64,000 nt of DNA. It comes from Candidatus Daviesbacteria bacterium (GTDB taxonomy: Bacteria > Patescibacteriota > Microgenomatia > Daviesbacterales > UBA10151). The stretch is from assembly GCA_030699125.1 (NCBI GenBank), contig JAUYKM010000012.1, forward strand, positions 11,159 to 75,158. The letters are read 5' to 3'. The position numbers were made by a program, and so were the translations under genes. The first letter of the stretch is position 1. Each line of letters opens with the position of its first letter. Below the pieces are notes generated by a model, which saw only the letters and a list, made by a program, of their open reading frames with translations, did not search any database and was not told the DNA's origin. Shown here one piece after another: positions 1 through 13,726 of the stretch.

Positions 1-924
1 GGCAATCTTGCCACCTAGACTAGCCAATTTAACCGGGTTGTAGTGCCATTCAGCGGTGTAGCGTTGTCCGCAATAACCACAGTAGGCAAATCCCCGTAAC
101 AGAAAATCGTGGACTCTATGACGAATTAGAAAACTACGGTGCTTGGCTAACACATACTGGCAGGTATCGTAGAGCTCTTGGGTAATAATTGGGCGATGAT
201 TACCCATTTTTGACTCTCCGTGCCATCTGATGAGTCCGTAATAAAATGGGTTATTGAGGATATTGCAGATGACACTATGACCTAACCCGGTGCCATTTCT
301 TGAAAGAATATTTTTGTCTGCTAACCAATCCTGAACCTCAATAATAGAGTAACTACCCGTTGCATAGAGTTGAAATAATTCCTTGATAATGGGTGCGGTG
401 TAAGGATCAGGTTCACAAGTTTTTCGTTCTCTATCACCACCTACACTCCGATATCCAACCGGAGGAGGGGTGGGTTGCCAACCTTCCCGAAATTTTTGCA
501 TTAAAGCGTCACGGGTTCGTTGGCTGTTCACTTCACTTTCCCATTGAGCCACACTGGCAAAGATATTCGGCACCAAACTCGTTCCCTCACTCAAATCACC
601 TTCACAAACAGAGAGGAGTTTGATCCCCTTTTGCTTGAACTCACTGTAAAGTTTGGCAAAGTCACTGACATTTCTGGCAAAGCGGTCAATCTTATAGATG
701 ATAATTGCGTCAACTGGATGTTCCTCAAGTTCCTTCAGTAACTCCTGAAAAGCGGGCCTGTCGGTGGTTCGGGCACTTTTCCCATCCTCTTGGAATGTTC
801 GTTTAATATGGTAGGTGTGCATTTGGGCATATTCCATACACGCCCGTTTTTGATTGTCTATGGAGAAACCTTCGTGAGCCTGTTCTTCAGTGGATACTCG
901 GATATATAAATATGCGTTTTTCAT
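1..924 (-). CDS. Large serine recombinase (resolvase/invertase family). N-terminal ~308 aa only; the gene continues past the window start.
   Basis: Reverse-strand ATG at 924..922. Translation MKNAYLYIRVSTEEQAHEGFSIDNQKRACMEYAQ... carries the catalytic Ser in the YIRVSTEEQ resolvase motif. The ORF stays open to position 1. The + strand ORFs at 393..741 are antisense artefacts. Confidence 0.8.
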   Translation of the reverse strand, partial: MKNAYLYIRVSTEEQAHEGFSIDNQKRACMEYAQMHTYHIKRTFQEDGKSARTTDRPAFQELLKELEEHPVDAIIIYKIDRFARNVSDFAKLYSEFKQKGIKLLSVCEGDLSEGTSLVPNIFASVAQWESEVNSQRTRDALMQKFREGWQPTPPPVGYRSVGGDRERKTCEPDPYTAPIIKELFQLYATGSYSIIEVQDWLADKNILSRNGTGLGHSVICNILNNPFYYGLIRWHGESKMGNHRPIITQELYDTCQYVLAKHRSFLIRHRVHDFLLRGFAYCGYCGQRYTAEWHYNPVKLASLGGKIA

Positions 925-1087
925 AGTTATTCTTTCCTTATATTGATATTAAATTAGCCTGTGTGAGTTCTACTATCTTATACATATATTTTATTAGTTT
1001 TTGATTGAAATATCAAGGTAATCCAATCCTTATGGTTACTCTATAAACACTAGTTACTATATAGTCACTATGTGTTCCTATAAGTGA

Positions 1088-1477
1088 TTATGTATTGATT
1101 GCTTTATCTATTTGGTCTAAATCCTCATCTGTGATTTCTTCAGTTGTATTCCGGTTCTTCAACTTGTTTAGTATTTCGGATGAATACACGCCCTCTCTTA
1201 CCTTTTGATCCAATTCCGACAAAAATTGATTGATTACTCGCTCCTGGAGTTTGTGCCATTTGTCTTTATCATCAACAATAAAACACCGAAACCATTTATG
1301 TCCGAAGTCACCTTGACCGGTTGATGGTGGTTGCAACCAAAGATTGCCTTCTTTTGAGAGAGAAACACGGAAATATCTAACTTGAGCATCGTCCCAGATA
1401 AGTGTTGCTTGGGCAAGATAATTGCCACTCATCTTGAGATATATTTTTATATTTGCCTGGTCTAAGATTTCACTCAT
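1088..1477 (-). CDS. Hypothetical protein, 129 aa, island-associated.
   Basis: Clean ORF with no recognisable motif. Its start context ends in ...GAATAACT-ATG-like sequence (see finding). Confidence 0.5.
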   Translation of the reverse strand: MSEILDQANIKIYLKMSGNYLAQATLIWDDAQVRYFRVSLSKEGNLWLQPPSTGQGDFGHKWFRCFIVDDKDKWHKLQERVINQFLSELDQKVREGVYSSEILNKLKNRNTTEEITDEDLDQIDKAINT

Positions 1478-1529
1478 ACTTTATATTTATAGAAATTTTA
1501 TTTGTTATAACTTCTTTAATTTAGGTATA

Positions 1530-1700
1530 CTTGTGGTCACCTTAATGTCACCTATTTGTAATAAATGTAGCCTTGAAAGTTTTTGTCCGTTTTGTGTGGT
1601 CTTATTGTGGTCTAATTGTGTATTAAATAACCTCAAATAACTCAAGTCAGCCTTTCCCGGGTTTGTGTAGTCCAATTGTCGTCTATTTGTAGGTTTATTA
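1530..1700. repeat. Iteron-like cluster of 6 or more direct repeats TTGTG(G/T)NGTC(T/A) at ~10-12 bp spacing.
   Basis: Copies seen at ~1531, 1594, 1606, 1616, 1662 and 1675. AT-rich and non-coding; the two overlapping track ORFs are low-complexity. Confidence 0.45.
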
Positions 1701-1722
1701 GCCTTGATATCGGATTTCATAA

Positions 1723-1959
1723 TCATTGTCTGTAAATAAGCTGTTTTAGGTTTCTTTGGGCTGCAAAATATGAGTTGGGCTCCACACTTCCCCTAGACGA
1801 GAAGAAGTCGTTAGTTAACCTTTCTCTATCAGGGGTATCCTCAAAAACGAAAACCGCTCGTTTCGGATTGTCTTTTTTAACCATTAACAGAAGACAGGAC
1901 TTACTCAGAAGATATGCACACAGAGGGAAATTATCACTTTCAAAAACTTTATTTTTCAT
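1723..1959 (-). CDS. Hypothetical small protein, 78 aa.
   Basis: ORF with start context AAAAAATAACT-ATG. The upstream mini-ORF's TAA stop lies 2 nt before this ATG. Confidence 0.4.
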   Translation of the reverse strand: MKNKVFESDNFPLCAYLLSKSCLLLMVKKDNPKRAVFVFEDTPDRERLTNDFFSSRGSVEPNSYFAAQRNLKQLIYRQ

Positions 1960-1961
1960 AG

Positions 1962-2105
1962 TTATTTTTTCTTGTCAGGTTTGATAAAGCCGTAACTTGG
2001 TTTCTGGTAAATTATCTGGGTGAGGACGAGATTGACCCACTGTTCCGCTGCAGCGTCTATGATCTTAGAGGGATATTTCTGGTTATTCTTCTTATTACTA
2101 TTCAT
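1962..2105 (-). CDS. Possible small ORF (47 aa, MNSNKKNNQKYPSKIIDAAAEQWVNLV...).
   Basis: Not in the ORF track (under 60 aa). Start context GGATAACT-ATG. Its stop TAA overlaps the TAACTATG context of the next gene. Confidence 0.2.
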   Translation of the reverse strand: MNSNKKNNQKYPSKIIDAAAEQWVNLVLTQIIYQKPSYGFIKPDKKK

Positions 2106-2203
2106 AGTTATCCAAAACTGATCTTGTTGGCTTCAGTTTATGGCAACTATGACTAGAGCTCCGCTTCCGAATATGGAGTGAGTTTATTTCACACTACAGG
2201 GGA

Positions 2204-3025
2204 TCAAATGTCAGAGGAGTGCTGTATATCTTTATAGAAATCACTTGCAATTTTCCTGATGTTTGAGTCGTTGAGGTTATATTTTTCTTCATCTTGGTCG
2301 TAATTCTCATCAGTAAGAAAGTCTTTCATTATTTCATCAATAATCTGCGGTGCTTCTTTTCCGAGGGAATGGTGAAGGTAAATAACTAAATCTCTCCTGA
2401 ATAACCACGCCTTTCTGTTACGCCCAGTGGGAAAAGCGGTTAGGAATTGTTGAAGGAAGGAAATTATCTGCCAATTTTTTTCAATATACTCGTGAAGTTG
2501 GTTTTTGGTAGTGTCTTTATATAATCGTATATATGCTCCCTCAGGTAAATCTTCTTTATCTTTATGTAAAGAGATACGAGCTTTGTATTTCGGTTCATCA
2601 ATTGACAGATTGTTTTCCAGAGTAACCAATTCTCCAACAGGTAGGACCTCGCCAAAGTATAAATAGTTCAAGACAAACTCTCCGTATTTATCCGGATTGA
2701 GTTGATATTTTTGGCAAACCTTGGCTATTTGCTTATCCCACGGATCCACCGGGACTTTATCACTATGACCGTTAAACCATTCTTCATATTTGGGATCATC
2801 GTCTCTTGGTGTGGTATAGAAGTCCTCTGGCAATTGATATTTCTGCCTAAGATCTAGCACTGTTTTTCTAAATGAGCTTTCAGTTACTACCCGAATTATG
2901 TTGAAAATGACTTCTTGAAGATCATAAACTGTCTTATCTGGTTGCTTACTAACCCATTCTAGTAACACTACAAGGTCTTTTTTAACCTCAACAGGATATA
3001 TTCTTCTGGTTATATTTATACTCAT
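2204..3025 (-). CDS. Hypothetical protein, 273 aa, island-associated.
   Basis: Long clean ORF. Start context GGAATAACT-ATG. No recognisable catalytic motif. Confidence 0.6.
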   Translation of the reverse strand: MSINITRRIYPVEVKKDLVVLLEWVSKQPDKTVYDLQEVIFNIIRVVTESSFRKTVLDLRQKYQLPEDFYTTPRDDDPKYEEWFNGHSDKVPVDPWDKQIAKVCQKYQLNPDKYGEFVLNYLYFGEVLPVGELVTLENNLSIDEPKYKARISLHKDKEDLPEGAYIRLYKDTTKNQLHEYIEKNWQIISFLQQFLTAFPTGRNRKAWLFRRDLVIYLHHSLGKEAPQIIDEIMKDFLTDENYDQDEEKYNLNDSNIRKIASDFYKDIQHSSDI

Positions 3026-3086
3026 AGTTATTCCAGCTGATACATATTTTACATCTTAGATGTATAATTATGTATAAGTTATCAAG

Positions 3087-3278
3087 ATGACTATGCCAAA
3101 AGGTAAGCGACTATTGAAAATTAAAGAAGCAGCGGAGATGTTGGGGGTTAATCCCGAAACATTAAGGCGCTGGGACAATGACGAAATTCTCAAAGCCGTT
3201 AGGGTTGGTAGTCGGGGTGATAGACGCTATAAGGTTGAAGAAATTGAGAAGAAAATAAAACAAAGAAAGATAGGTTAG
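3087..3278 (+). CDS. Excisionase-family helix-turn-helix DNA-binding protein (Xis/AlpA-like or R-M controller-like).
   Basis: 63 aa. LKIKEAAEMLGVNPETLRRWDNDEILKAVRVGSRGDRRYKVEEI matches the excisionase-type HTH_17 pattern. Confidence 0.6.
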   Translation: MTMPKGKRLLKIKEAAEMLGVNPETLRRWDNDEILKAVRVGSRGDRRYKVEEIEKKIKQRKIG

Positions 3279-3315
3279 GCATCTAATATCGTAGACCTAA
3301 AAAATAACTATAAAT

Positions 3316-6033
3316 ATGGAAAAAATAAGTGAGTGGACAACCAGAAAAAAGATAATTGATGAGAGGCTCAAGGCATCTGGTTGGACAACTATTGTTCCCT
3401 ACAGCGAAGGTATGGATTTAACCAAACTCCATAATGCTGCAGTTGAGGAACTACCTACCGAACACGGTCCGGCTGATTATGTGCTTTTCCTTTTTGGTCA
3501 GCCTATTGCTATTGTTGAAGCAAAAAAATTGAGTCTTGGTCCACAGAATGTGCTTATCCAAGCCCAACGATATGCCAAGGGTCTAAGTCAAGGAATTGGC
3601 GACTTCAATGGCTACAAAGTTCCATTCATTTACTCCACTAATGGTGAGGTTTTCTGGTTTCAGGATCTAAGACCCACCAACAGCCGGTCAAGGCAAGTTA
3701 AGGCTTTCCACACGCCTCAAGGACTGTCGGAAATGGCAATCACCGATATAGCTTCCAAATCTTGGTGGTTTGGGCAAAACCCGATTGATAACGGAAAACT
3801 CCGCTATTATCAGAAAGAAGCCATTTCCTCAATTGAGTCGGCAATCCAAAACAACAAACGGGCAATGCTAGTGGCGATGGCAACCGGAACCGGGAAGACC
3901 TACACTATTGCCTCTCTTATTTACCGAATGCTCAAGTCCGGAACCAGTAAGCGGATATTATTTTTAGTTGACCGAAAGGCATTAGCGGCTCAAGCTGTGA
4001 TGGAGTTTGCGGCTTATGAAGCAGAGAGCGGACTCAAGTTCAATCAAATATATCAAGTGTATAGCCAGAAGTTTCAGAAAAGCTATCTAGAGGACGATGA
4101 TAAGTTTGACTTTACCGCATTACCTAATAGCTACCTAACCAATCCTGACGGTAACCAGGTTTTTGTTTATGTATGCACTATCCAACGAATGCAGATCAAT
4201 CTTTTTGGAAAAGAAGGAATGTTTTCTGAAACCGGAGAGTATGACCCCGAGGATGATGCCGATAAATTAGATATACCCATTCACGCCTTTGACACGATTA
4301 TTGCCGATGAGTGCCATCGTGGATATACCTCGCAAGAAGTAAGCAAGTGGAGAGAAGTATTAGACCACTTTGACGCTATCAAGATCGGTTTAACTGCTAC
4401 ACCAGCGGCTCATACTACCAGTTATTTCAAAGAAATTGTGTATCGGTATCCGTATGAGAAAGCGGTCAAAGATGGCTACTTGGTGGATTATGACGCAGTA
4501 AAAATTGAGTCTGGAATACGACTACAGGGAATTACAATCAAAGCGGGTGAAGAAGTAGAGGAAGTTGATCCCTCAACGGGGGTGCAACAACTTGACCTTT
4601 TGGAAGATGAGAAGCACTACGAAACCACCGAGCTTGAACGAGAAGTGACCTCACCGGATAGCAATCGCAAGATTATTCAAGAGTATGCTAAGTATGCCCT
4701 TGAGCAGGAAAAAGAATTAGGTAGGTTTCCCAAAACGCTTATCTTTGCCGACAATGATTTGCCACACACCTCTCATTCAGACCAGATAGTTGATATGTGC
4801 CGGGACATTTTTGGTCGGGGTGATGCGTTCGTCCAGAAGATAACCGGGTCGCCAACAGTAGATAGACCTCTTAGAAGGATTAAGGAGTTTAGAAACAGAC
4901 CGGAGCCTCTAATTGTGGTGACAGTAGATATGCTATCAACCGGAGTTGATATTCCGGCACTAGAAAACATTATTTTCCTTCGTCCAGTCAGATCAAGGAT
5001 ATTGTTTGAGCAAATGATGGGTCGTGGCACCCGTCTGTGTAAGTCATTTCCCAATGGCATTGGAACCGCACCCAAAACCCACTTTACGGTTTATGACTGC
5101 TTTGCCGGGACGCTCTTGGAGTCATTCAAAAATGAAACGAGTATTACCCAGTCAGCCCCACTCTCTCCTAACCGAACGATAAGGCAAATTATCCAAGAGT
5201 TAAGCGACAGCGTTGATGTGGATTACAACACGCGCTGCTTAGTCAAAAGATTTCAACGAATAAATAAAAACATAACTCAAGAAGGTAGAGATAGATTGGC
5301 AAAGTTTATACCCGATGGTGATTTAGGTCACTTTGCTAGTTCTCTTCCAGACCAGCTAGATAAGGAACGAGTATCAACCCTGAAACTGCTTAACAATGAT
5401 GAGTTGATTGACTTGCTGGAGAATTATCCAAGACCACCTAAGCAGTTTATCCGGGCAATTGAGTCGGAAGATGTAGTGACTTCCGAGTATCTTTTCCGCA
5501 CTACCGATGGTCGTGAACTAAAACCAGATGATTACATTTCCGCTTTTGAAAAGTTTGTCAAAGATAATCCCGAACACATTGAGGCAATCTCTATTATCTT
5601 AGAGAAACCAACCGGCTGGAACACCGAAGCACTCAAGGAATTGAGGGGTTCGCTCAAGACCTCACCGGAAGGATTTACCGAGGATAAATTGCGCAAAGCC
5701 TACAAGTATCCACTTGCCGATATTATTTCTATGATCAAACACGCTGGTAAAGAGGAACCAATCCTTTCGGCTCAAGAACGGGTAGATTTGGCTCTTGAGA
5801 AAGTAACCCAAGGTAAAGTGTTATCAACGCCACAACAAGAGTGGATAGGTCTAATCCGTAAGCACCTGATTGAGAACCTAACCATTGAAACCAGCGACTT
5901 TGACACAATGCCGATCTTCGTAAATAAGGGTGGTAATTTCAACCGTATCAACCAAGACTTTGACAACCAATTGGGGGTATTTATTAGTCAGTTAAATACG
6001 GCTATGCCGCAGGTATACGCTTATGCCAACTAA
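3316..6033 (+). CDS. hsdR: Type I restriction enzyme R subunit (HsdR).
   Basis: 905 aa. N-terminal PD-(D/E)xK nuclease region (ADYVLF...VEAKK). Walker A MATGTGKTYT. DEAH-like box DECHRG. Followed by hsdM and hsdS. Confidence 0.9.
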   Translation: MEKISEWTTRKKIIDERLKASGWTTIVPYSEGMDLTKLHNAAVEELPTEHGPADYVLFLFGQPIAIVEAKKLSLGPQNVLIQAQRYAKGLSQGIGDFNGYKVPFIYSTNGEVFWFQDLRPTNSRSRQVKAFHTPQGLSEMAITDIASKSWWFGQNPIDNGKLRYYQKEAISSIESAIQNNKRAMLVAMATGTGKTYTIASLIYRMLKSGTSKRILFLVDRKALAAQAVMEFAAYEAESGLKFNQIYQVYSQKFQKSYLEDDDKFDFTALPNSYLTNPDGNQVFVYVCTIQRMQINLFGKEGMFSETGEYDPEDDADKLDIPIHAFDTIIADECHRGYTSQEVSKWREVLDHFDAIKIGLTATPAAHTTSYFKEIVYRYPYEKAVKDGYLVDYDAVKIESGIRLQGITIKAGEEVEEVDPSTGVQQLDLLEDEKHYETTELEREVTSPDSNRKIIQEYAKYALEQEKELGRFPKTLIFADNDLPHTSHSDQIVDMCRDIFGRGDAFVQKITGSPTVDRPLRRIKEFRNRPEPLIVVTVDMLSTGVDIPALENIIFLRPVRSRILFEQMMGRGTRLCKSFPNGIGTAPKTHFTVYDCFAGTLLESFKNETSITQSAPLSPNRTIRQIIQELSDSVDVDYNTRCLVKRFQRINKNITQEGRDRLAKFIPDGDLGHFASSLPDQLDKERVSTLKLLNNDELIDLLENYPRPPKQFIRAIESEDVVTSEYLFRTTDGRELKPDDYISAFEKFVKDNPEHIEAISIILEKPTGWNTEALKELRGSLKTSPEGFTEDKLRKAYKYPLADIISMIKHAGKEEPILSAQERVDLALEKVTQGKVLSTPQQEWIGLIRKHLIENLTIETSDFDTMPIFVNKGGNFNRINQDFDNQLGVFISQLNTAMPQVYAYAN

Positions 6034-7459
6034 CACAATTACTAATACGGGAGTTGTAAATAAACTCTGGGGGTTTTGTCATATCCTTCGTCAAGATGGA
6101 ATGGATTATGGCGACTATGTAGAACAACTTACCTTCCTATTATTCCTCAAGATGGCAGAGGAAAAGAAAGTAGTTATTCCCAAAGAATACTCTTGGGCTG
6201 TATTGAAAACCAAGTCCGGCACGGATCTAACTGATTTCTATTCGGATCTGTTAAGGGGTATGGCAAAACAGGAAGGGTTATTAGGAGCTATATTTACTGA
6301 AGCCCTCTCAAAGTTCACCAAGCCAGTCAACCTCAAGAAATTGATTGATCTCATAGATGAAATAGACTGGTCAAGTTTGGGAGTAGATGTCAAAGCAGAA
6401 GCCTATGAAGGACTTCTTGAAAAGTCTGCCTCTGAAGGTAAAAAAGGTGCTGGACAATACTTTACTCCAAGAGTGCTTATCCGATCTATTGTTAGTTGTA
6501 TAAAACCAGACCCCCGGAAAATACCTGATTTCTCCATCTGTGATCCTGCCGCTGGGACTGGTGGATTTTTAGTTGCTGCTTATGATTGGTTTCTCAAGAC
6601 TGTGGGCGAGGCAGTAAATCGTGACGATTTGGAACGAATTAGGAAGAAAACTTACTTTGGCACAGAATTAGTTCCCCGTCCCCGTAGATTAGCTTTAATG
6701 AACCTCTACTTGCACGGAATTGAGTCGGAGATAAGACTTGGTGACTCCTTGTATGAACCGGATCGTGGTGATCGCTATAATGTGATCCTCACCAATCCTC
6801 CGTTTGGAACCAAGGGAGCCAATCAGATACCGGAAAGACAAGACTTTACCGTTGGCACCAGTAACAAGCAGCTAAACTTCGTTCAACAAATCCTGACCAC
6901 CTTGAAACCGGGTGGTAGGGCTGGTGTGGTGCTTCCTGACAATGTTTTATTTGCTGACCAAGCGGGTGAGATTTTCAAGATCCTGATGCAGGATTGTAAT
7001 TTGCATACCATTCTAAGGCTTCCTAGAGGCACATTTACGCCTTACAGCCAAGGAGTTAAGGCTAATGTCATCTTTTTCACCAAAGGTCTTCCGACTGAAA
7101 ATGTCTGGATCTATGATGCCAGAACCAATGTTCCGGGAATAACCAAAAAGGATAGACCGCTTACTCCCAAACATTTCGCTGAGTTTGAAAAATGCTATGG
7201 AGACGATCCAAATGGACTTTCTTCAAGAAAGGAAACAGATAGCAAAGAAGGCAGATGGAAAAAGTTTTCTCTGGAACAAGTTAAGGAAGCCAACTACAAG
7301 CTAGATGGCTTCAAGTGGATCAAGGATGAGGACTTGGACGATCCAGAAAACCTGCCAGAACCGGAAGAATTATTGACTGACGCAATGTCAGAACTCAAAG
7401 AGGCAAATACTGCCCTAGAAAAGATCTATGCAGAGCTCACAAACGGAACTGACAACTAG
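6023..7459 (+). CDS. hsdM: Type I R-M N6-adenine DNA methyltransferase subunit (HsdM).
   Basis: 478 aa. Motif I DPAAGTGGFL and motif IV NPPFG. Overlaps hsdR by 11 nt. Confidence 0.9.
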   Translation: MPTNTITNTGVVNKLWGFCHILRQDGMDYGDYVEQLTFLLFLKMAEEKKVVIPKEYSWAVLKTKSGTDLTDFYSDLLRGMAKQEGLLGAIFTEALSKFTKPVNLKKLIDLIDEIDWSSLGVDVKAEAYEGLLEKSASEGKKGAGQYFTPRVLIRSIVSCIKPDPRKIPDFSICDPAAGTGGFLVAAYDWFLKTVGEAVNRDDLERIRKKTYFGTELVPRPRRLALMNLYLHGIESEIRLGDSLYEPDRGDRYNVILTNPPFGTKGANQIPERQDFTVGTSNKQLNFVQQILTTLKPGGRAGVVLPDNVLFADQAGEIFKILMQDCNLHTILRLPRGTFTPYSQGVKANVIFFTKGLPTENVWIYDARTNVPGITKKDRPLTPKHFAEFEKCYGDDPNGLSSRKETDSKEGRWKKFSLEQVKEANYKLDGFKWIKDEDLDDPENLPEPEELLTDAMSELKEANTALEKIYAELTNGTDN

Positions 7460-8762
7460 AACATTATCAGCTTTATTATCAGATATTGAAGCTGGGACTC
7501 GTCCCCGTGGTGGTGTGAGAGGTATATCCTCAGGTATTCCTAGCTTGGGTGGTGAACACCTAAACTCTCTCGGTGGGTTTGATTTTAGCTCAATAAAATA
7601 TGTGCCTGAAAACTTTGCATTGTCAATGAACAGAGGTAAGGTTAGATTAAATGATATTTTAGTAGTGAAAGATGGTGCGACAACTGGAAAAGTGTCCTTT
7701 GTAAACAGCGACTTTCCTTACAAAGAAGCTGTGATAAATGAGCACATTTTTTTATTAAGAACGAAACCAGATATTCTTCCTAAGTATCTTTTTTGGTTCT
7801 TGTGGAGTTCGTTGGGGCAAAGTGAAATTATTAGCAACTTTCAAGGTTCTGCACAGGGAGGAATAAATAGAACTTTTGTTGATGGAGTTGAAGTTCCAGT
7901 CTGTGATATTGATGAACAAAGAAAAATAGTGGTGAAGGTTGATGAATTATTTCCACAGGTTTCTCAAACATCAGTAAATATCCAAAAAGCAAAACTACTT
8001 ATTCAAAAGTTTCGCCAATCGGTTCTCTCCGCTGCCGTCACTGGGAAATTGACTGAGGGGTGGAGAGAAAAACACCTAAATGAAAACGGCAAGTTAGAGC
8101 TTGAAAAGTTATTTGGGACAATAAACACCGGTAATCTTGAAGATATTCCAGACACTTGGGGTCAAATTAGTTCATCAAGGGTATTTTCGTATGTCACGAG
8201 TGGATCAAGAGGCTGGGCAAGGTATTATTCGGACAAGGGCAATCTATTCTTCAGGGTGGGTAATTTGGAACATAATTCAATAAGCCTAAAACTAGATGAT
8301 GTTAAATATGTTAAGTTGCCAGATAAGACTGAAGGGAGACGCACAAAGTTACAACCAAATGACCTTCTCATATCAATTACAGCTGACATTGGAAGGATCG
8401 CTCTAATATCAAGTGATATTGATGAGGGATATATAAATCAACACATAGCTTTAGCAAGACCGGTAACTTCAATTTATGCACCCTTCCTTGCTTGGTATTT
8501 AGCCACATATCAAGGTGGGTGGAGCCAGTTTGTAGACAAGCAGCGTGGAGCAACAAAAGTTGGATTAGGATTAGATGATATTTCAAGTATTACCATTCCA
8601 TTTCCACCAATTGCAGAACAAAAAGAGATTGTTTCACAAATAGATAGATATTTAGGAATAGCACACCAAGTAGAACTTCAGATTGAAAACACTGAAAGAA
8701 AAGTAAATAAACTCACCCAATCAATCCTAGCTAAGGCATTCCGGGGAGAATTGGTAAACTAG
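7428..8762 (+). CDS. hsdS: Type I R-M specificity subunit (HsdS), two target-recognition domains.
   Basis: 444 aa. Overlaps the hsdM 3' end. Bipartite layout with repeated conserved helices, typical of HsdS. Confidence 0.8.
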   Translation: MQSSQTELTTRTLSALLSDIEAGTRPRGGVRGISSGIPSLGGEHLNSLGGFDFSSIKYVPENFALSMNRGKVRLNDILVVKDGATTGKVSFVNSDFPYKEAVINEHIFLLRTKPDILPKYLFWFLWSSLGQSEIISNFQGSAQGGINRTFVDGVEVPVCDIDEQRKIVVKVDELFPQVSQTSVNIQKAKLLIQKFRQSVLSAAVTGKLTEGWREKHLNENGKLELEKLFGTINTGNLEDIPDTWGQISSSRVFSYVTSGSRGWARYYSDKGNLFFRVGNLEHNSISLKLDDVKYVKLPDKTEGRRTKLQPNDLLISITADIGRIALISSDIDEGYINQHIALARPVTSIYAPFLAWYLATYQGGWSQFVDKQRGATKVGLGLDDISSITIPFPPIAEQKEIVSQIDRYLGIAHQVELQIENTERKVNKLTQSILAKAFRGELVN

Positions 8763-8763
8763 T

Positions 8764-9918
8764 ATGACTGCATTTAGGAATGGTGAATATCGCAAGGTGA
8801 CCGGATATTTGCGACAACATTTGAACACTAGAAATATACAGGGGCTATCTACATCAGGCTCTGTTGATGACGAGTTGTGGATTTTATTGGAGTATTATTC
8901 GGAAGTAGAAGATGTTGGATTGAAGTTTTTACTTGATAACGGTATTAAGAATAAAACCACGAGAAAGACTACCTATAAGCACTTTCAAGCATATGTCAGA
9001 CAAGCAAAGAATTACTATAATTCAGCTAAGGTTTTAGCACCTCGCTCAGCGGGATTGCTGTATTATTATTGTTTCCTTAATTTGGCAAAGGCAGCTTTAG
9101 TGGTAAGAGATCCGTCAATTGGAGGTAAGAAAATCACACACGGTTTGAGCTACAAGATTAATAGCGATCCGCATTTTATTAAACAAAGTGTAAACATCTT
9201 GAATGACGGAGTATTTCCAAAACTCTACGCTTTGTATTTCGGCCAGAGCGTAAAACAGATGAGTCTTACTATTCCAGCATTACTTAACTACTGCACAGAT
9301 ATAGGGTATCAATGTCAAATGGCTGGGATACATCAAACGAAGATAATTTATTCCTATTATGCCCATTGTGTTGATAAAACAAAAAAAACAGGGTGGGGTT
9401 TAGTAGCTATTCCTCAGGCTTCGTTGCTGTTGAAATACCATAAGAGCATAAAAAGTTTTATTGATACTTTTGAAAAAATAGAACTTCCACAATTAAGCTG
9501 CCGTGAATTATTTGACCTTGATGCATTTCAACAAAGCCATTATTCGTTTTTCCAAAGTAGGGAAGAAAAAAAGTGGATTAGCGACAACATACCTTCGGAA
9601 CCCGAGGTGAGAAGTGAAACATTAGCGGCACTGAGTAGAGTATTCCAAACTTACTACTTTGCAAAAGGCGCAGACTTTGCAATTTCTCTTCCTTACCTTC
9701 CCAATAAACAAGTAAGGATGGATGAAACAATTGCCATCTATCTGATAATGTTTTATTTATCAAACTTAGTAAGATATAACCCAAGGTATCTAGAGGGTCT
9801 ATTAAGTAAAAAGGAGTCTTGGCTAATTGATAGTTTCGTAAGATCCTGTTCGGTAACATTTCTTAGAGCATTTATATCTAGGATAATTGGCACAGATTAC
9901 ATAATTGAGGCTAGATAA
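8764..9918 (+). CDS. Unknown 384-aa protein translationally coupled to hsdS. Candidate R-M-linked accessory or defence gene.
   Basis: ATG lies 1 nt after the hsdS stop codon. No catalytic motif recognised, apart from an Rx5H-type motif RKTTYKH near the N-terminus. Confidence 0.6.
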   Translation: MTAFRNGEYRKVTGYLRQHLNTRNIQGLSTSGSVDDELWILLEYYSEVEDVGLKFLLDNGIKNKTTRKTTYKHFQAYVRQAKNYYNSAKVLAPRSAGLLYYYCFLNLAKAALVVRDPSIGGKKITHGLSYKINSDPHFIKQSVNILNDGVFPKLYALYFGQSVKQMSLTIPALLNYCTDIGYQCQMAGIHQTKIIYSYYAHCVDKTKKTGWGLVAIPQASLLLKYHKSIKSFIDTFEKIELPQLSCRELFDLDAFQQSHYSFFQSREEKKWISDNIPSEPEVRSETLAALSRVFQTYYFAKGADFAISLPYLPNKQVRMDETIAIYLIMFYLSNLVRYNPRYLEGLLSKKESWLIDSFVRSCSVTFLRAFISRIIGTDYIIEAR

Positions 9919-10129
9919 TTTATGTTAGTTACGGTGTTGCCAAATGTTGTCCATACTGCAATTTCTTGATTAATAACCATCTTTCTCGCAACTCTCCGAT
10001 AAAACTAGCGTTCTGAAAAACCTCTAAGATCTTGGGGAAATCCTTCAGTATGAGGTGTCTAGGCTTGGGGAGCCAATCGGCACTTAATATACCCAAAATG
10101 AGCCTCTTAATAAATCATGCATTCACTAT

Positions 10130-10149
10130 TCGTATCATTTATGATACGA
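10130..10149. promoter_or_regulatory. Perfect 9-bp inverted repeat TCGTATCAT-TT-ATGATACGA. A third half-site ATGATACGA lies at ~10163. Putative operator.
   Basis: The palindrome overlaps the start region of the HTH-Fic gene. Confidence 0.4.
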
Positions 10150-10158
10150 TTAATAAAT

Positions 10159-11205
10159 ATGAATGATACGAACCTTAATGTCCGCCAAAAACAGATCTTG
10201 TCAATCTTAAAACAGCAAAGTAGTGTTGCCCGCCAAGGATTAGCACAGCAAATATCTGCTAAAAAAGGAATTTCGAGAATAACAATTATTAGAGATTTAA
10301 ACGATTTAATCAACGATAAACTGGTCAAAGTAGAAGGAAAAGGGAAAAATACTAGATATAGTTTGCTTGAAACCAATCCTTTGTTAAACTATCTTGATCT
10401 TGACGGTTATTTTTTTGAAGAAGACAGGATAATTAAAAAAAAATTTGATATTTCCGTCTTTAATCACTTAAACAACTTATATTCTCCGGGTGAAATTAGA
10501 TTGTGGGAAAAGAGCAAGAAAGTTTTTAAAGAGGCTCAAGAAAAACTAGATCCATCAATCTATAAAAGGGAACTCGAAAGATTTGTTATTGAACTATCTT
10601 GGAAATCATCACAAATTGAGGGAAACACTTACAGCTTAATCGAAACGGAAACCTTGATTAAGCAGAATATTAAAGCGAGGGGGCATTCTAACGAAGAAGC
10701 TGTGATGATTTTAAATCACAGAGATGCATTTAATTCGATTATTAAGAATAAAGAGGATTTTAAGAAAATAGATTTTTCTGATGTTGTTCAGTTACACAAC
10801 ATTCTTACAAAAGGACTTATTACATCTGGGGTAAGATCGCAAAAAGTGAGAATTTCTGGAACACAATATGAGCCCTTATCAGACAAACATGAGCTTGAAA
10901 AGATATTAAGACAATTAATCGGACATGTGAATAAAACCGAATATCCACCGGAAAAAGCATTAATACTTGCGATAATGATTGCTTATCTTCAACCATTTGC
11001 TGATGGGAATAAGAGGACTTCGCGTATGCTTTCAAACGCTGTCCTCGTGGCTTTCGATTTCCCCCCTTTGTCTTATCGAAATATTAATGTTAATGAATAT
11101 AGAAGCGTAATGATTATTTTTTATGAAACTAACAATTTGTTTAATTTCAAACGACTTTATTTGAAACAGCTGCAGTATGTAATTGAAAATTATTTTCAAT
11201 TTTAG
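10159..11205 (+). CDS. Fic/Doc-family protein with an N-terminal winged-HTH and a degenerate Fic motif (QPFADGNKRTSR instead of HPFx[DE]GNGRxxR).
   Basis: The track starts it at 10117. An in-frame ATG at 10159 (MNDTNLNV...) lies after the operator palindrome. The motif codons caa-cca-ttt-gct-gat-ggg-aat-aag-agg were read directly. Confidence 0.7.
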   Translation: MNDTNLNVRQKQILSILKQQSSVARQGLAQQISAKKGISRITIIRDLNDLINDKLVKVEGKGKNTRYSLLETNPLLNYLDLDGYFFEEDRIIKKKFDISVFNHLNNLYSPGEIRLWEKSKKVFKEAQEKLDPSIYKRELERFVIELSWKSSQIEGNTYSLIETETLIKQNIKARGHSNEEAVMILNHRDAFNSIIKNKEDFKKIDFSDVVQLHNILTKGLITSGVRSQKVRISGTQYEPLSDKHELEKILRQLIGHVNKTEYPPEKALILAIMIAYLQPFADGNKRTSRMLSNAVLVAFDFPPLSYRNINVNEYRSVMIIFYETNNLFNFKRLYLKQLQYVIENYFQF

Positions 11206-11286: not shown

Positions 11287-11673
11287 TTAAACCCATTTAT
11301 TAAGTATTCCAGGTTCTGCTTTTACTGAAAATATTTTAAATGTATGTGACCTGATTTCTCCTTTATATTTCTCACCGATTGCTTGAGTATGAGCTATTTC
11401 TTTTAATTTGACTTTATCTACTCCTAATTCTTCTTGAAGTTCTCTTTTTGCAGCCTGAAGATAGCTTTCACCTGGATCGACATGTCCGGCAGAGGAGTGA
11501 TCTAACCTACCGTCATCCCTTAGTTGAATTAATATTTGTCCTTTATCATTAGTCAAAAAAACTACAGCAGTCCTGTGAATTAGTCCTTTTTGGTGAGCCT
11601 CGGCTCTTGTTACCTCCCCTAAAACATTATCTTGATCATCAACCCAAATAACCTTATCCTCTGAAGTTTTCAT
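11287..11673 (-). CDS. NUDIX hydrolase.
   Basis: Nudix box GHVDPGESYLQAAKRELQEELG. Confidence 0.8.
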   Translation of the reverse strand: MKTSEDKVIWVDDQDNVLGEVTRAEAHQKGLIHRTAVVFLTNDKGQILIQLRDDGRLDHSSAGHVDPGESYLQAAKRELQEELGVDKVKLKEIAHTQAIGEKYKGEIRSHTFKIFSVKAEPGILNKWV

Positions 11674-11747
11674 AGTGGCATTATAATATATAAAGGAGTA
11701 AAGTTTCAGGTTCTTCGATTTATCGGAAGTTCTGATATAATCCCTTC

Positions 11748-12356
11748 ATGAAATTACTTTTGACTTCTGCTGGTTTAACCAATAAATCAATCACAAACGC
11801 TCTTAAACAATTAGCAGATAAGCCGTTTGAAGATTTAAATGCAGTATTTATTCCAACAGCAGCATACCCAGAGGTAAATTTACAGTGGCTAGAAGAAGAT
11901 ATAAAAAGAATTCAAAAAGCAGATGTTATTTTTGTAGGCGGAGGTAATACTTTTTATTTAAGCTATTGGATGCAAAAGAGTGGACTTTCTGATCTTTTAC
12001 CAGAATTATTAAAAACCAGAATATATGTTGGTATTAGTGCAGGAAGTATGATTGTAACAAATAATTTAAGAGTTTCTTCCCAAGCATTGGAAAAATTTCA
12101 TCAATTATCTGATGAAGAATATGAGGAGTTAGGACCTAAGGGTAAGTCTTTATCTAAAACAGCCAAACTTGTTGATTTTGTAATTAGGCCACATCTTAAC
12201 TCTCCCCAATTTTCAAAAATAAGATTGAATTTTTTATCAAAGATCGCGAAAAATTTATCAGAAACTATGTATGCAATTGATGATCAGAGCGCAGTTTTGG
12301 TAAATGATAAAAAAATTGAGATAATTTCAGAAGGTAAGTGGAAGAAATTTAATTAA
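11748..12356 (+). CDS. Peptidase E-like (S51 family) dipeptidase.
   Basis: 202 aa. MKLLLTSAG...VGISAGSMI pattern typical of PepE/S51. Confidence 0.65.
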   Translation: MKLLLTSAGLTNKSITNALKQLADKPFEDLNAVFIPTAAYPEVNLQWLEEDIKRIQKADVIFVGGGNTFYLSYWMQKSGLSDLLPELLKTRIYVGISAGSMIVTNNLRVSSQALEKFHQLSDEEYEELGPKGKSLSKTAKLVDFVIRPHLNSPQFSKIRLNFLSKIAKNLSETMYAIDDQSAVLVNDKKIEIISEGKWKKFN

Positions 12357-12421
12357 AAGTTCTTAAGTATGTTCAATAAGGGGAGCATACAAACTTTACT
12401 CTAACCTCTGGTATAATCCAC

Positions 12422-13726
12422 TTGATAGTTTCTATGGAAATAATAGTTATACTGCTGCTTATTCTTTTAAATGGTATACTTGCCATGGTGGAGATTGCAG
12501 TTGTCTCTGCCAGAAAATCAAGGCTACAACATCTGGCTCAGGAGGGTAATAAAAACGCCCAAGCTGTATTAGAGCTTAAAGATTCTCCTAATAGATTTTT
12601 ATCAACAGTTCAAATAGGCATAACTCTTATTGGAATACTTGCTGGTGCATTTGGAGGGGCAACAATTGCAGAGAATTTAGCTTCATATTTTGAAACCATA
12701 CCATCTATTGCTCCCTATAGTGAAGCAATTGGCATTGCCATTGTGGTTGCTGCGATCACTTATCTCTCTTTAATTATTGGAGAACTAGTACCAAAACGTT
12801 TAGGACTTAGTAATCCTGAACTTATCGCCTCTTTTGCTGCCCGTCCCATGCGCGCACTTTCAAAAATAAGTGCACCACTAGTGTATCTTTTAAGCCTCTC
12901 CACAGATTTTATTCTACAAGTGTTTCAGATAAAGCCAAAAGAAGAAGCAGTCAGTGTGGAAGAAATAAGGATGCTTATTCGGGAAGGGGCAAGGGTGGGT
13001 GTTTTTGGGACGGTAGAAAAAGATATTGTTGAACGCACCCTTCAGTTAGGGGACAAGAAAGTGAATACGCTTATGATCCCTCGGAAGGAAATTGTCTGGC
13101 TTGATATAGACTCCTCATTCAAAGCCATACGTTCAAGAGTTGCCAAACATCCCCATTCTCATTTTCCGGTATGCCGAGGTAGTCTTGATAAAGTTCTTGG
13201 GGTGGTGATGACTGAAGATATACTGGCAAATTTCTTAATAGAAGAAAAAATTGATTTGAAAAAATTTCTTCATAAGCCGCTTTTTGTACCAGAGACAACA
13301 GATGGGTTGAAAGTCTTAGAATTATTTAAAAAATCCGGTATTCACATGGCTTTAGTTGTTGATGAATATGGTAATGTTCAAGGTCTTATTTCCATGACTG
13401 ATATTCTGGAAGCAATAGTGGGAGATATACCAACAATTGATGAATTGGAAGAGCAGGAGATCGTTAAGAGGGGTGATGGTTCCTTCTTAGTGGATGGTCT
13501 TGTGCCGATTGATGAATTGAAAGAATATTTCCATATCAGCAGACTTCCCGGAGAAAAGTCTGGGAATTACCATACTGTTGGTGGTTTTGTGATGTATAAA
13601 CTTGGCCATATTCCTATTGCTGGTGATAGCTTTGAATTGGAATCATTAAAACTTGAAGTTTTAGATATGGATGGCAACAGAGTTGATAAAATTTTAATTA
13701 TTCCATCAAAGAAACATTTAGCATAA
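12422..13726 (+). CDS. HlyC/CorC (CNNM) family transporter: DUF21 TM domain, CBS pair, CorC_HlyC.
   Basis: 434 aa. N-terminal multi-TM region, central CBS region, C-terminal transporter-associated domain. Confidence 0.8.
   Translation: MIVSMEIIVILLLILLNGILAMVEIAVVSARKSRLQHLAQEGNKNAQAVLELKDSPNRFLSTVQIGITLIGILAGAFGGATIAENLASYFETIPSIAPYSEAIGIAIVVAAITYLSLIIGELVPKRLGLSNPELIASFAARPMRALSKISAPLVYLLSLSTDFILQVFQIKPKEEAVSVEEIRMLIREGARVGVFGTVEKDIVERTLQLGDKKVNTLMIPRKEIVWLDIDSSFKAIRSRVAKHPHSHFPVCRGSLDKVLGVVMTEDILANFLIEEKIDLKKFLHKPLFVPETTDGLKVLELFKKSGIHMALVVDEYGNVQGLISMTDILEAIVGDIPTIDELEEQEIVKRGDGSFLVDGLVPIDELKEYFHISRLPGEKSGNYHTVGGFVMYKLGHIPIAGDSFELESLKLEVLDMDGNRVDKILIIPSKKHLA

What the first reader, a model, noticed from the sequence alone, without database searches (positions are those of the whole stretch)
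8764..9918. Unknown 384-aa protein translationally coupled to hsdS
Its start codon is 1 nt downstream of the hsdS stop (…AAC TAG t ATG…), so it is almost certainly part of the R-M transcript. It has no motif I can assign, but contains an N-terminal Rx5H string (RKTTYKH), the spacing seen in HEPN-type RNase active sites. Type I R-M loci are known landing pads for HEPN anticodon nucleases (PrrC, RloC) and Abi proteins. A new member of that guild is plausible but unproven.
Basis: inference. Interest (0 to 1): 0.55.

Follow-up and report, generated by a model that had tools for sequence, protein, structure and literature searches.

The report
YaaC-family cargo gene after hsdS

Summary
ORF 8764-9918 (+, 384 aa) starts 1 nt after the hsdS stop (TAG-T-ATG).

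It is not motif-less. It matches Pfam PF14175 (YaaC-like) at 119.9 bits, and NCBI already names the identical protein "YaaC family protein" in a Candidatus Daviesbacteria MAG.

Shuffled sequences give one such match 71% of the time, R67 and H73 occur in only 10-12% of 141 relatives, and no Rx4-6H column is conserved. The true invariants are Q80, N106, K109, H126-G127 and R337-Y338-x-P340, with no invariant acidic residue. An AF2 model (pLDDT 94.5) has no Foldseek match in the PDB.

Context is the main result. The hsdRMS operon lies on a serine-recombinase element. In a sister element (HsdM 96% identical), homology stops at the ATG after hsdS and resumes about 1.2 kb later, and an OLD/GajA-like nuclease replaces YaaC. 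Other sisters carry PDC-S18, Schlafen-like or unknown genes there, and two more carry YaaC. Distant YaaC genes replace the EcoPI res-mod genes in P1-like plasmids and abut Tn7-like ends and MTase-Mrr fusions.

Best reading: an autonomous defence-type cargo gene. Its biochemistry is unknown.

The parts
8764..9918 (+). YaaC-family protein gene (384 aa, Pfam PF14175). This is the finding itself and the variable cargo of the element.
   Evidence: ORF. Pfam YaaC at 119.9 bits against a cut-off of 27, aa 63-372. 100% identical to NCBI 'YaaC family protein', Candidatus Daviesbacteria. AF2 pLDDT 94.5. pN/pS 0.149/0.835 against L080.
8760..8766 (+). hsdS stop / 1-nt spacer / cargo start junction (TAG-T-ATG), the translational-coupling geometry. 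A GGGGAGA Shine-Dalgarno-like stretch lies at 8743-8749 inside hsdS.
   Evidence: Sequence. The same 1-3 nt junction occurs in L175, L178, L180, L177 and L173, and an 8-nt overlap in L174, with different cargo genes. Homology to L175 runs through the ATG and stops at 8766.
8767..9956 (+). Variable cassette: the segment with no homology to sister element L175, where 2.2 kb (an OLD/GajA-like nuclease plus a small HTH gene) occupies the same slot.
   Evidence: blastn of the window against L175 shows homology ending at 8766 and resuming at 9957-10099 (81%). L175 genes are listed. PADLOC GajA E = 2.6e-35.
8962..8982 (+). It is not a conserved motif.
   Evidence: R67 in 14/141 and H73 in 17/141 non-redundant relatives. 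Shuffles give P(>=1 Rx4-6H) = 0.71.
9001..9144 (+). Codons of the family-invariant polar residues in the first long helical hairpin and the loop after it: Q80 (9001-9003), Y101/Y102, N106 (9079-9081), K109 (9088-9090), H126-G127 (9139-9144).
   Evidence: Invariant or >=95% in 42-, 65- and 141-sequence alignments down to 16% identity. Helices 64-90 and 93-115 in the AF2 model.
9772..9783 (+). Codons of the invariant R337-Y338-x-P340 motif at the end of helix 321-338.
9115..9723 (+). Poorly conserved alpha/beta insertion (about aa 118-320) between the conserved helical segments. It is a candidate specificity or sensor region (inference).
   Evidence: DSSP elements of the AF2 model. Only W211 and I180 reach >=70% conservation in this stretch.
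7428..8762 (+). hsdS (444 aa, two target-recognition domains).
   Evidence: Pfam Methylase_S and PADLOC Specificity_I E = 1.6e-73. Only the central (7978-8067) and C-terminal (8595-8766) conserved regions match L175.
6023..7459 (+). hsdM (478 aa).
   Evidence: Pfam N6_Mtase and HsdM_N, PADLOC MTase_I E = 2e-170. 96% identical to the Woesebacteria HsdM P0088.
3316..6033 (+). hsdR (905 aa, EcoAI/EcoEI-type, i.e. type IB-like).
   Evidence: Pfam ResIII and EcoEI_R_C. NCBIfam PRK11448 E = 1.3e-181 and restrict_EcoAI, both below their equivalog cut-offs.
3087..3278 (+). 63-aa HTH_17/MerR-type (excisionase-like) gene heading the operon. It is conserved in sister elements.
   Evidence: Pfam. The same gene lies upstream of hsdR in L173, L175, L177 and L180.
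1088..3025 (-). Conserved small element genes on the minus strand: 129-aa and 73-aa ORFs with no family match, a DUF5659 protein (1723-1959), and a 273-aa protein with no family match (2204-3025).
   Evidence: ORFs. Pfam. 82.6% DNA identity to L175 over 1544-7446.
1..948 (-). Large serine recombinase (N-terminal 316 aa; the gene runs off the left end of the window). It marks the whole block as a mobile element.
   Evidence: Pfam Resolvase, Recombinase and Zn_ribbon_recom. 77% DNA identity to the L175 recombinase region. The same recombinase type is present in L173, L175, L177 and L178.
9932..10114 (-). Conserved about 50-60-codon minus-strand reading frame or remnant that forms the right-hand homologous flank of the cassette.
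   Evidence: Six-frame comparison of the window and L175. tblastn hits in L175, L174 and L080. No Rfam family or terminator here.

Best explanation
The ORF encodes a stand-alone member of the YaaC-like family (PF14175).

Shown:
- It is the exchangeable cargo in a fixed slot directly behind hsdS of a type IB hsdRMS operon, carried by a serine-recombinase mobile element.
- The slot keeps a 1-3 nt stop-to-start junction whatever the cargo.
- Sister elements carry known or candidate defence genes in that slot.

Inferred:
- The cargo is co-transcribed with hsdS and translated by termination-reinitiation.
- YaaC is a second-line, autonomous defence or conflict module that rides with the R-M system. 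This would resemble the 'R-M guardian' or abortive-infection logic of PrrC and PARIS, but without needing the R-M proteins.

Proposed mechanism (inference, low confidence):
- A conserved helical core presents a pocket of invariant polar residues: Q80, N106, K109, H126, R337 and Y338.
- No acidic residue is invariant, which suits metal-independent phosphoryl chemistry on RNA, DNA or a nucleotide, or binding of an anionic ligand.
- The poorly conserved alpha/beta insertion of about 200 aa would provide trigger or target specificity.

It is not a canonical HEPN enzyme.
For: - Identity: Pfam YaaC E = 1.9e-34, the NCBI name, and family invariants present.
- Cassette: homology to L175 (HsdM 96% identical) ends at the ATG (8766) and resumes at 9957, and L175 has a GajA/OLD-like nuclease there.
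- Other sister operons (HsdM 85-90% identical) carry in the same slot SLFN_AlbA_2 plus an unknown gene; a SEC-C protein plus PDC-S18 (E = 5.7e-102); a weak-Mrr_cat protein, an unknown protein and a kinase; or 194-aa plus 166-aa unknown proteins.
- YaaC recurs after hsdS in L173 and L174, and in L174 it is followed by a Shedu SduA-like gene.
- Independent swaps elsewhere: in IncY P1-like plasmids, YaaC plus a 169-aa ORF sit exactly where phage P1 has the EcoPI res-mod genes, between mat and lxc. The pair is present in 109 of 5,426 complete E. coli genomes.
- In the Bacillus cereus group the order is glmS - YaaC - tnsABCD.
- Among 87 same-strand neighbours within 120 nt, Pfam finds 5 N6_N4 MTases (4 neighbours hit Mrr_cat, most likely as MTase fusions), 1 HsdR, AbiTii, 2 SLATT_4, 2 Aga-type nucleases and 3 integrases.
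- Autonomy: a 76%-identical copy has no hsd genes nearby, the family shows no domain fusions and no fixed partner.
- The GC step (0.42-0.45 in hsdRM against 0.32-0.34 in the flank) fits a horizontally acquired element.
Against: - There is no experimental evidence for any YaaC protein, and no paper in the held library mentions the YaaC family.
- No PADLOC, PHROG or NCBIfam model matches.
- Most relatives are not next to recognisable defence genes. Some sit at the edge of sugar or glycosyltransferase clusters or among miscellaneous genes.
- The founder gene, B. subtilis yaaC, was grouped with genes co-evolving with PolC (PMC3814617). From my own knowledge it lies at a conserved chromosomal position next to guaB, which points to a non-defence role for at least part of the family.
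- No antitoxin-like partner is present in the window, so constitutive toxicity is unlikely.
Confidence: 0.5

Rival explanations
1. HEPN-type RNase or anticodon nuclease. Either RKTTYKH is the Rx4-6H active site, or the helical core is a divergent HEPN fold with a non-canonical site that cleaves tRNA or mRNA when R-M is inhibited.
For: - The core consists of long helices split by a large insertion, an arrangement seen in some HEPN families (own knowledge).
- The invariant residues include an Arg and a His but no acidic residue.
- HEPN genes are commonly embedded in R-M operons (PMC3710099).
- The slot in sister elements holds guardian-type genes.
Against: - RKTTYKH is expected by chance and is not conserved, and no Rx4-6H column exists in the family.
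- The invariant Arg sits in an R-Y-x-P motif with no His 4-6 residues downstream.
- No HEPN-named Pfam family appears at E <= 10 in 42 members.
- No PDB hit was found by sequence profile, including an insert-deleted core profile, or by Foldseek.
- YaaC is not named in the HEPN census text.
- There is no ABC-ATPase domain as in PrrC or RloC.
Confidence: 0.1
2. Dedicated accessory subunit or regulator of this type I R-M enzyme (for example restriction alleviation, assembly or control), functional only together with HsdR, HsdM and HsdS.
For: - It is translationally coupled to hsdS.
- YaaC follows hsdS in three related operons.
- One distant YaaC follows an EcoR124-type hsdR (L030).
Against: - Sister operons with 85-96% identical HsdM lack it and carry unrelated genes instead.
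- A 76%-identical YaaC stands alone.
- Only 4 of 170 related loci have any hsd-like gene within 8 kb.
- The family also occurs in P1-like plasmids in place of R-M, not alongside it.
Confidence: 0.08
3. Non-defence cargo or housekeeping protein. It could be an MGE-selfish function (stabilisation, anti-defence, transposition or integration helper) or a general cellular function inherited from the B. subtilis YaaC lineage, landing here only because the slot tolerates any gene.
For: - B. subtilis yaaC is grouped with PolC co-evolving genes.
- YaaC lies immediately before tnsA in a Tn7-like element and next to integrases.
- Its neighbours in P1 (ulx, darB) are anti-restriction genes.
- Some relatives have sugar-cluster contexts.
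- No known defence model matches.
- Two sister cargos are also unknown.
Against: - The gene it replaces in the closest sister element, and the gene set it replaces in P1, are bona fide defence systems.
- Recurrent same-strand neighbours are MTases, REase-fold nucleases, HsdR, AbiTii and SLATT.
- It was not found in the phage genome collection by tblastn.
Confidence: 0.27
4. Sensor or adaptor rather than effector. YaaC would recognise an invader cue and hand over to a variable neighbouring effector, which here would be the R-M enzyme itself.
For: Where a tightly linked partner exists it is usually effector-like and varies between loci:
- MTase-Mrr fusions.
- Aga-type/AHJR nuclease.
- SLATT_4 and HATPase_c_3.
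- A weak Nuc_deoxyrib_tr-like 169-aa protein in the P1-like pair.
- SduA in L174.
Against: - Most copies have no conserved neighbour at all.
- The strictly invariant polar cluster looks more like an active or ligand site than a variable sensor surface.
- No partner gene lies between YaaC and the right flank of the element in the window.
Confidence: 0.1

Closest known systems
YaaC-like protein family (Pfam PF14175; founder B. subtilis YaaC)
   Same: Full-length match to the family model (119.9 bits). All family-invariant residues are present (Q80, N106, K109, H126-G127, R337-Y338-x-P340). It is a single-domain protein of typical size.
   Different: It belongs to a subfamily with about 60 extra N-terminal residues (a beta-hairpin plus two helices). 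It is only 20-25% identical to the Firmicute and proteobacterial members. Here it is R-M-linked on a mobile element. The family has no assigned function.
PrrC (anticodon nuclease embedded in the EcoprrI type IC R-M locus) and its homologue RloC
   Same: It is an accessory gene inside or abutting a type I R-M operon on the same strand. The plausible logic is a second line of defence that backs up restriction (PMC12707154; PMC3710099).
   Different: PrrC and RloC have an N-terminal ABC-ATPase and a C-terminal HEPN domain with an Rx4-6H motif, and YaaC has neither. prrC is always R-M-linked (PMC3458546 abstract), whereas YaaC usually is not.
OLD-family / GajA / PARIS AriA-type ATPase-nucleases
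   Same: One of these occupies the identical post-hsdS slot, with the same 1-nt junction, in the closest sister element L175. PARIS is described as an R-M guardian.
   Different: There is no sequence or domain relationship. YaaC has no ATPase or TOPRIM domain.
Abi2/AbiD/AbiF-type HEPN genes embedded in R-M operons
   Same: These are single-gene, roughly 300-400-aa, largely helical proteins found inside R-M operons, and they are proposed abortive-infection effectors (PMC3710099).
   Different: No Abi_2 or other Abi model matches, and the R-x4-6-H motif is absent.
Variable immunity slots of mobile elements (the res-mod position of phage P1; P2/P4 defence hotspots)
   Same: Flanks are conserved and the defence cargo between them is exchangeable. 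A YaaC gene pair precisely replaces EcoPI res-mod between mat and lxc in IncY P1-like plasmids.
   Different: The window's slot lies inside an operon, directly coupled to hsdS, on a serine-recombinase element of Patescibacteria rather than on a phage.

Membership tests
YaaC-like (Pfam PF14175) | Score above the Pfam gathering threshold over most of the model | tested here: met
   119.9 bits against a cut-off of 27, covering aa 63-372 on model positions 24-305 of 307. All 86 homologues carry PF14175.
YaaC-like (Pfam PF14175) | Family-invariant residues present (Q, N..K, HG, RYxP) | tested here: met
   Q80, N106, K109, H126, G127, R337, Y338 and P340 are invariant or >=95% in alignments of 42, 65 and 141 sequences. 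Residues 98-106 are partly biased by the peptide pattern used to fetch loci.
YaaC-like (Pfam PF14175) | Stand-alone single-domain protein of about 320-400 aa | tested here: met
   The listed hits of the profile searches (best 120 and best 150) carry PF14175 only or are of family size. Two longer hits are over-called starts with low-complexity N-termini.
HEPN superfamily | Conserved Rx4-6H catalytic motif | tested here: not met
   The only Rx4-6H (R67-H73) is at chance level (P = 0.71) and is present in <=12% of relatives. The best alignment column has the motif in 10 of 141 sequences.
HEPN superfamily | Sequence-profile match to a HEPN family model | tested here: not met
   hmmscan of 42 members against Pfam at E <= 10 lists only 20 families, and none of them is a HEPN-named family. 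PADLOC and NCBIfam gave nothing. HHsearch-level profile-profile comparison could not be run, because no HEPN alignments or library were available.
HEPN superfamily | Four-helix up-down HEPN fold | tested here: inconclusive
PrrC/RloC anticodon nucleases | N-terminal ABC-type ATPase domain | tested here: not met
   No ATPase family matched in Pfam, NCBIfam or PADLOC.
PrrC/RloC anticodon nucleases | Obligate linkage to a silencing type I R-M system (PrrC) | tested here: not met
   Only 4 of 170 related loci have an hsd-like gene within 8 kb. The 76%-identical P0002 is solo.
R-M-linked accessory defence cargo (operational class) | Same-strand gene abutting an R-M operon at a position where sister operons carry alternative defence genes | tested here: met
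   Cassette boundaries lie at 8766 and 9957 relative to L175. Alternative cargos include GajA/OLD-like and PDC-S18, and in L174 SduA follows YaaC.
R-M-linked accessory defence cargo (operational class) | Phage- or plasmid-exclusion phenotype | not testable with these tools
   This requires experiments. No published data were found.
Known or candidate defence systems in PADLOC-DB v2 (including Abi proteins) | Match to any system protein model | tested here: not met
   No hit for the window protein at E <= 0.01, and none for 8 diverse YaaC members including the E. coli P1-type one at E <= 0.1. The database dates from 2023.

The most novel reading that the evidence does not exclude
The YaaC-like family (about 3,200 clusters at 50% identity, from Patescibacteria to E. 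coli P1-like plasmids) is an unrecognised single-gene anti-phage or anti-MGE immunity family. It has a fold with no solved relative and a new metal-independent active site (Q-N-K-H-R-Y pocket). It is deployed as a back-up or 'guardian' module behind R-M systems and in the immunity slots of phage-plasmids and transposons.
Probability: 0.3. Interest if true: 0.7.

Novelty: new member of a known kind. Interest (0 to 1): 0.5.

Why it matters
The gene itself is not a new family: it is PF14175 and is already annotated as such. That family is a functional blank, however. No paper in the held library discusses it, and it is absent from the PADLOC defence catalogue (2023).

Three independent "same slot, different cargo" comparisons now point the same way:
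- the post-hsdS slot of a Patescibacterial serine-recombinase element;
- the res-mod slot of P1-like phage-plasmids;
- the glmS-proximal end of Tn7-like elements.

Together they give a concrete, testable hypothesis that YaaC proteins are immunity or conflict genes. An E. coli version exists on natural P1-like plasmids in about 2% of complete genomes, so the test is easy to run.

The locus also shows a tidy design principle: a type I R-M operon whose last stop codon serves as a fixed translational docking point for exchangeable second-line defence genes.

Tried and rejected
1. HEPN through the RKTTYKH string was rejected on chance expectation and lack of conservation.
2. Remote sequence homology found nothing:
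   - Pfam at E <= 10 on 42 members.
   - PDB by single sequence, full profile and an insert-deleted core profile.
   - PADLOC, NCBIfam and PHROGs.
3. Fold comparison was limited:
   - Foldseek against PDB and BFVD gave only noise, with kinases at TM about 0.13.
4. The supplement of the HEPN census paper holds no alignments that could serve for hhalign. pNP40, a source of AbiF, is not in the plasmid collection.
5. I looked for a conserved partner or antitoxin by database-free clustering of neighbours. There is none. The largest cluster is DNA MTases, in 7 of 154 loci.
6. I looked for domain fusions. There are none, and the two 'long' proteins are over-called starts.
7. The 143-bp conserved flank (9957-10099) has no Rfam family, terminator or tRNA. 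It is instead a conserved minus-strand coding remnant.
8. Literature searches for YaaC with HEPN, with R-M, or as 'YaaC family/like' returned only name collisions or nothing.
9. I noted that 'THGL' around H126 resembles the RNase T2 CAS I motif, from memory only. I treat it as coincidence because the fold class differs and there is only one invariant His. This was not tested.
Full report
**1. Observation**

ORF 8764-9918 (+) encodes 384 aa. The hsdS stop (TAG, 8760-8762) is followed by one base and then the ATG.

The three upstream ORFs are a complete type I R-M operon:
- hsdR, 3316-6033: ResIII + EcoEI_R_C, EcoAI/PRK11448-like.
- hsdM, 6023-7459.
- hsdS, 7428-8762.

Their ends overlap by 11 and 32 nt. 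The string RKTTYKH is at aa 67-73.

**2. The gene is real and belongs to a known family**

- Pfam places aa 63-372 in PF14175 'YaaC-like' (E = 1.9e-34, 119.9 bits against a cut-off of 27).
- The identical protein exists in NCBI as 'YaaC family protein' from a Candidatus Daviesbacteria MAG. 85 further homologues, down to 23% identity, all carry PF14175.
- A search of 1.84 billion cluster representatives finds 3,199 family members at E <= 1e-3, of which 505 are at <= 1e-30.
- The listed hits are single-domain proteins of about 320-400 aa. The two longer hits have low-complexity, over-called N-termini.
- Against the 76%-identical copy, pN = 0.149 and pS = 0.835, which indicates purifying selection.
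- AF2 gives a confident model (pLDDT 94.5, pTM 0.93).

So 'no motif I can assign' is not correct. The family itself, however, has no known function. Nothing in the 8-million-paper library mentions 'YaaC family' or 'YaaC-like'. The founder gene, B. subtilis yaaC, appears only in a list of genes co-evolving with PolC.

**3. The HEPN argument fails**

- The protein has a single Rx4-6H match, while shuffles of its composition give 1.15 on average and at least one in 71% of cases.
- In 141 non-redundant relatives, R67 is kept in 14 and H73 in 17. No alignment column carries an Rx4-6H in more than 10 sequences.
- The residues that are invariant down to 16% identity are Q80, Y101, Y102, N106, K109, H126-G127 and R337-Y338-x-P340, plus W353 (83%) and F358 (84%). 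No aspartate or glutamate is invariant.
- The invariant Arg lies in an R-Y-x-P motif with no His downstream.
- No HEPN-named Pfam family appears even at E <= 10 in 42 members. PADLOC, NCBIfam and PHROGs give nothing. PDB sequence and profile searches give nothing, including a profile of the helical core with the insertion removed.
- Foldseek of the model against the PDB and BFVD returns only noise.
- The protein also lacks the ABC-ATPase domain that defines PrrC and RloC.

**4. Anatomy of the protein **

- An N-terminal beta-hairpin and two short helices (aa 1-60). This part is specific to the subfamily.
- A long helical hairpin (64-90 and 93-115) carrying Q80, Y101/Y102, N106 and K109.
- A loop with H126-G127.
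- A poorly conserved alpha/beta insertion (about 128-318).
- Helices 321-338 (ending in R337-Y338), 340-345 and 350-375, and a final strand.

I infer that the conserved polar residues on the helical segments form one functional site and that the variable insertion provides specificity.

**5. Context in the window: a mobile element with a cargo slot**

Upstream of the operon lie:
- a 63-aa HTH_17/MerR (excisionase-like) gene (3087-3278);
- a conserved 273-aa protein;
- a DUF5659 protein;
- two small ORFs;
- the N-terminal 316 aa of a large serine recombinase, which runs off the left edge of the window.

GC content is 0.42-0.45 in hsdR and hsdM, 0.37 in YaaC and 0.32-0.34 beyond 10.1 kb.

The HsdM protein has a 96%-identical homologue in a Woesebacteria genome. 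That locus (L175) has the same recombinase, DUF5659, 273-aa, HTH_17 and hsdRMS arrangement.

DNA comparison with L175:
- Window 1-1031 matches at 77%.
- 1544-7446 matches at 82.6%.
- Only the conserved hsdS segments 7978-8067 and 8595-8766 match.
- Homology stops exactly at the ATG that follows hsdS (8766).
- Homology resumes at 9957-10099 (81%).

Between these points the window has YaaC (1.2 kb). L175 has a 581-aa AAA_15/AAA_21 + OLD-TOPRIM protein (PADLOC GajA 2.6e-35, AriA 1.4e-27, Old 1.6e-27) plus a small HTH gene. This is a clean cassette replacement.

**6. The slot is general**

| Locus | HsdM identity | Genes after hsdS |
|---|---|---|
| L177 | 90% | SLFN_AlbA_2 protein + 239-aa unknown |
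| L180 | 88% | 194-aa + 166-aa unknowns |
| L176 | 86% | 491-aa (weak Mrr_cat), 712-aa, Ser/Thr kinase, then GmrSD |
| L178 | 85% | SEC-C protein + full-length PADLOC candidate PDC-S18 (E = 5.7e-102) |
| L173 | 80% | YaaC (56% identical) |
| L174 | 81% | YaaC (57% identical), then a Shedu SduA-like gene |

In all but one locus the first cargo ATG lies 1-3 nt after the hsdS stop or overlaps it. In L176 an ATG lies 7 nt after the stop, although the called start is 34 nt downstream.

Several of those genes are recognised or candidate defence genes.

**7. YaaC elsewhere**

The link to R-M is not obligatory:
- Of 170 loci with YaaC relatives, only four have an hsd-like gene within 8 kb.
- The closest relative (76% identical) is solo, next to sugar genes and a reverse transcriptase.
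- Others sit in an integrated element beside a DpnII-MboI-domain (PF18742) protein, among miscellaneous genes, or at the end of a glycosyltransferase cluster.

Database-free clustering of neighbours finds no fixed partner. The largest cluster is DNA methyltransferases, directly adjacent on the same strand in L057, L104, L112, L114/115 and L120.

Pfam on 87 same-strand neighbours within 120 nt gives:
- N6_N4_Mtase x5;
- Mrr_cat x4 and NA-iREase1 x4, most likely C-terminal domains of the MTase-type neighbours (the L112 MTase carries a C-terminal nuclease-like region);
- integrase x3;
- a second YaaC x3;
- SLATT_4 x2;
- pP_pnuc_2/AHJR nuclease x2 (PADLOC Aga_Nuclease);
- HATPase_c_3 x2;
- one EcoR124-type HsdR, 36 nt upstream of YaaC in L030;
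- YgjP-like, AbiTii and an MTES_1575 REase.

Two further swaps were seen:
- In IncY P1-like plasmids, a YaaC gene (26% identical to the window protein) and an overlapping 169-aa ORF lie between mat and lxc. This is exactly where phage P1 carries the EcoPI res and mod genes. The pair occurs in 109 of 5,426 complete E. coli genomes, almost always on plasmids.
- In the Bacillus cereus group a YaaC gene lies between glmS and tnsA-tnsB-tnsC-tnsD of a Tn7-like element.

tblastn at E <= 1e-3 found no match in the 50,697 phage records, and only four distant hits appear in IMG/VR.

**8. Interpretation**

Shown:
- The family assignment.
- The operon position and conserved junction.
- The cassette boundaries.
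- The alternative cargos.
- The independence of YaaC from R-M.
- The set of invariant residues.

Inferred:
- YaaC is an autonomous defence or conflict gene that the element carries as a second line behind restriction. The published analogy is R-M 'guardians' such as PrrC and PARIS (PMC12707154).
- Its conserved Q/N/K/H/R/Y cluster without acidic residues performs metal-independent phosphoryl chemistry or binds an anionic ligand.
- The variable insertion senses the trigger.

I put about 0.5 on the defence-cargo reading and much less on any particular chemistry.

The main rival (about 0.27) is that YaaC is some other kind of MGE cargo or a housekeeping protein that merely tolerates this slot. 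It is supported by the Bacillus founder gene, the Tn7 and integrase neighbourhoods, the sugar-cluster contexts, and the absence from defence catalogues. The dedicated R-M subunit model, the canonical or divergent HEPN model, and the sensor-adaptor model each get about 0.1 or less.

**9. Novelty and score**

The protein is a new member of a known but uncharacterised family, in a known kind of arrangement (accessory genes riding on type I R-M loci).

What appears to be unreported is the repeated placement of YaaC genes in immunity slots of three unrelated kinds of mobile element, and the precise hsdS-coupled cargo slot in these Patescibacterial elements.

Interest is 0.5.

Noticed in passing
window 10117-11205 (+): An HTH (HTH_11/DeoR-like) + Fic-domain protein lies 200 nt downstream of YaaC. 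Its best PADLOC match is SoFic (E = 1.6e-20, partial) and it matches PHROG 11900. It lies beyond the point where homology to sister element L175 ends (10099), so it may be host DNA or separate cargo.
   Followed up: partly
window 9932-10114 (-); also L175 13964-14167, L174 6955-7104, L080 5467-5529: A conserved reading frame of about 50-60 codons on the minus strand (…LPKPRHLILKDFPKILEVFQNASFIGELRERWLLIKKL…) forms the right flank of the cargo slot. No gene is called there in the other loci. It could be a small gene, or the remnant 3' end of the integration target (att region) of the serine-recombinase element.
   Followed up: partly
L171 (NZ_CP029103.1 50174-51723) vs L172 (phage P1 NC_005856 3544-9600): In IncY P1-like phage-plasmids, a YaaC-family gene plus an overlapping 169-aa ORF replace the EcoPI res-mod genes between mat and lxc/ulx/darB. 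The 169-aa ORF has a weak, sub-threshold Nuc_deoxyrib_tr match (E = 1.8e-4). The pair is present in 109 of 5,426 complete E. coli genomes and would be a convenient experimental model.
   Followed up: partly
L179 6001-7047 (Bacillus cereus group); similar layout in L045: A YaaC-family gene sits between glmS and tnsA-tnsB-tnsC(TniB)-tnsD(TniQ), 17 nt upstream of tnsA. This places it at the glmS-proximal end of a Tn7-like element.
   Followed up: no
L104, L112, L114/L115, L120, L057 (and L007 at -2): YaaC genes are directly adjacent (28-44 nt gap or 32-nt overlap, same strand) to large N6_N4 DNA methyltransferases (324-594 aa); four of the neighbours scanned also carry Mrr_cat/NA-iREase1 nuclease-like domains. 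This may be a recurrent two-gene module.
   Followed up: partly
L175 11766-13511; L178 7519-9693; L177 8442-9802; L180 6554-7641; L176 10769-16472: Sister hsdRMS operons (HsdM 85-96% identical) carry different genes at the same hsdS-coupled slot: a GajA/OLD-like nuclease; SEC-C plus PDC-S18; SLFN_AlbA_2 plus an unknown; two small unknowns; and a three-gene set with a Ser/Thr kinase. The unknown genes are further defence candidates.
   Followed up: partly
window 1-3278: The left part of the window is the backbone of a mobile element: a large serine recombinase (cut by the window edge), DUF5659, a conserved 273-aa protein with no family, and an HTH_17/MerR excisionase-like gene. GC drops from about 0.43 (hsdR/hsdM) to about 0.33 right of 10.1 kb.
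   Followed up: partly
L058 8001-8936 and 9468-10373; three 'YaaC' hits among adjacent neighbours (A2): Some genomes, for example Virgibacillus senegalensis, carry two YaaC-family genes in tandem.
   Followed up: no
L054 296-3416: A YaaC-like ORF (981 nt; only aa 69-128 matched by tblastn) lies between a 506-aa gene and an RloB-like gene (Pfam RloB, E = 4.7e-19).
   Followed up: no
window 11287-13726: Downstream host-like genes are a NUDIX hydrolase (-), a Peptidase_S51 protein and a CNNM/CBS/CorC transporter. They appear unrelated to the finding.
   Followed up: no
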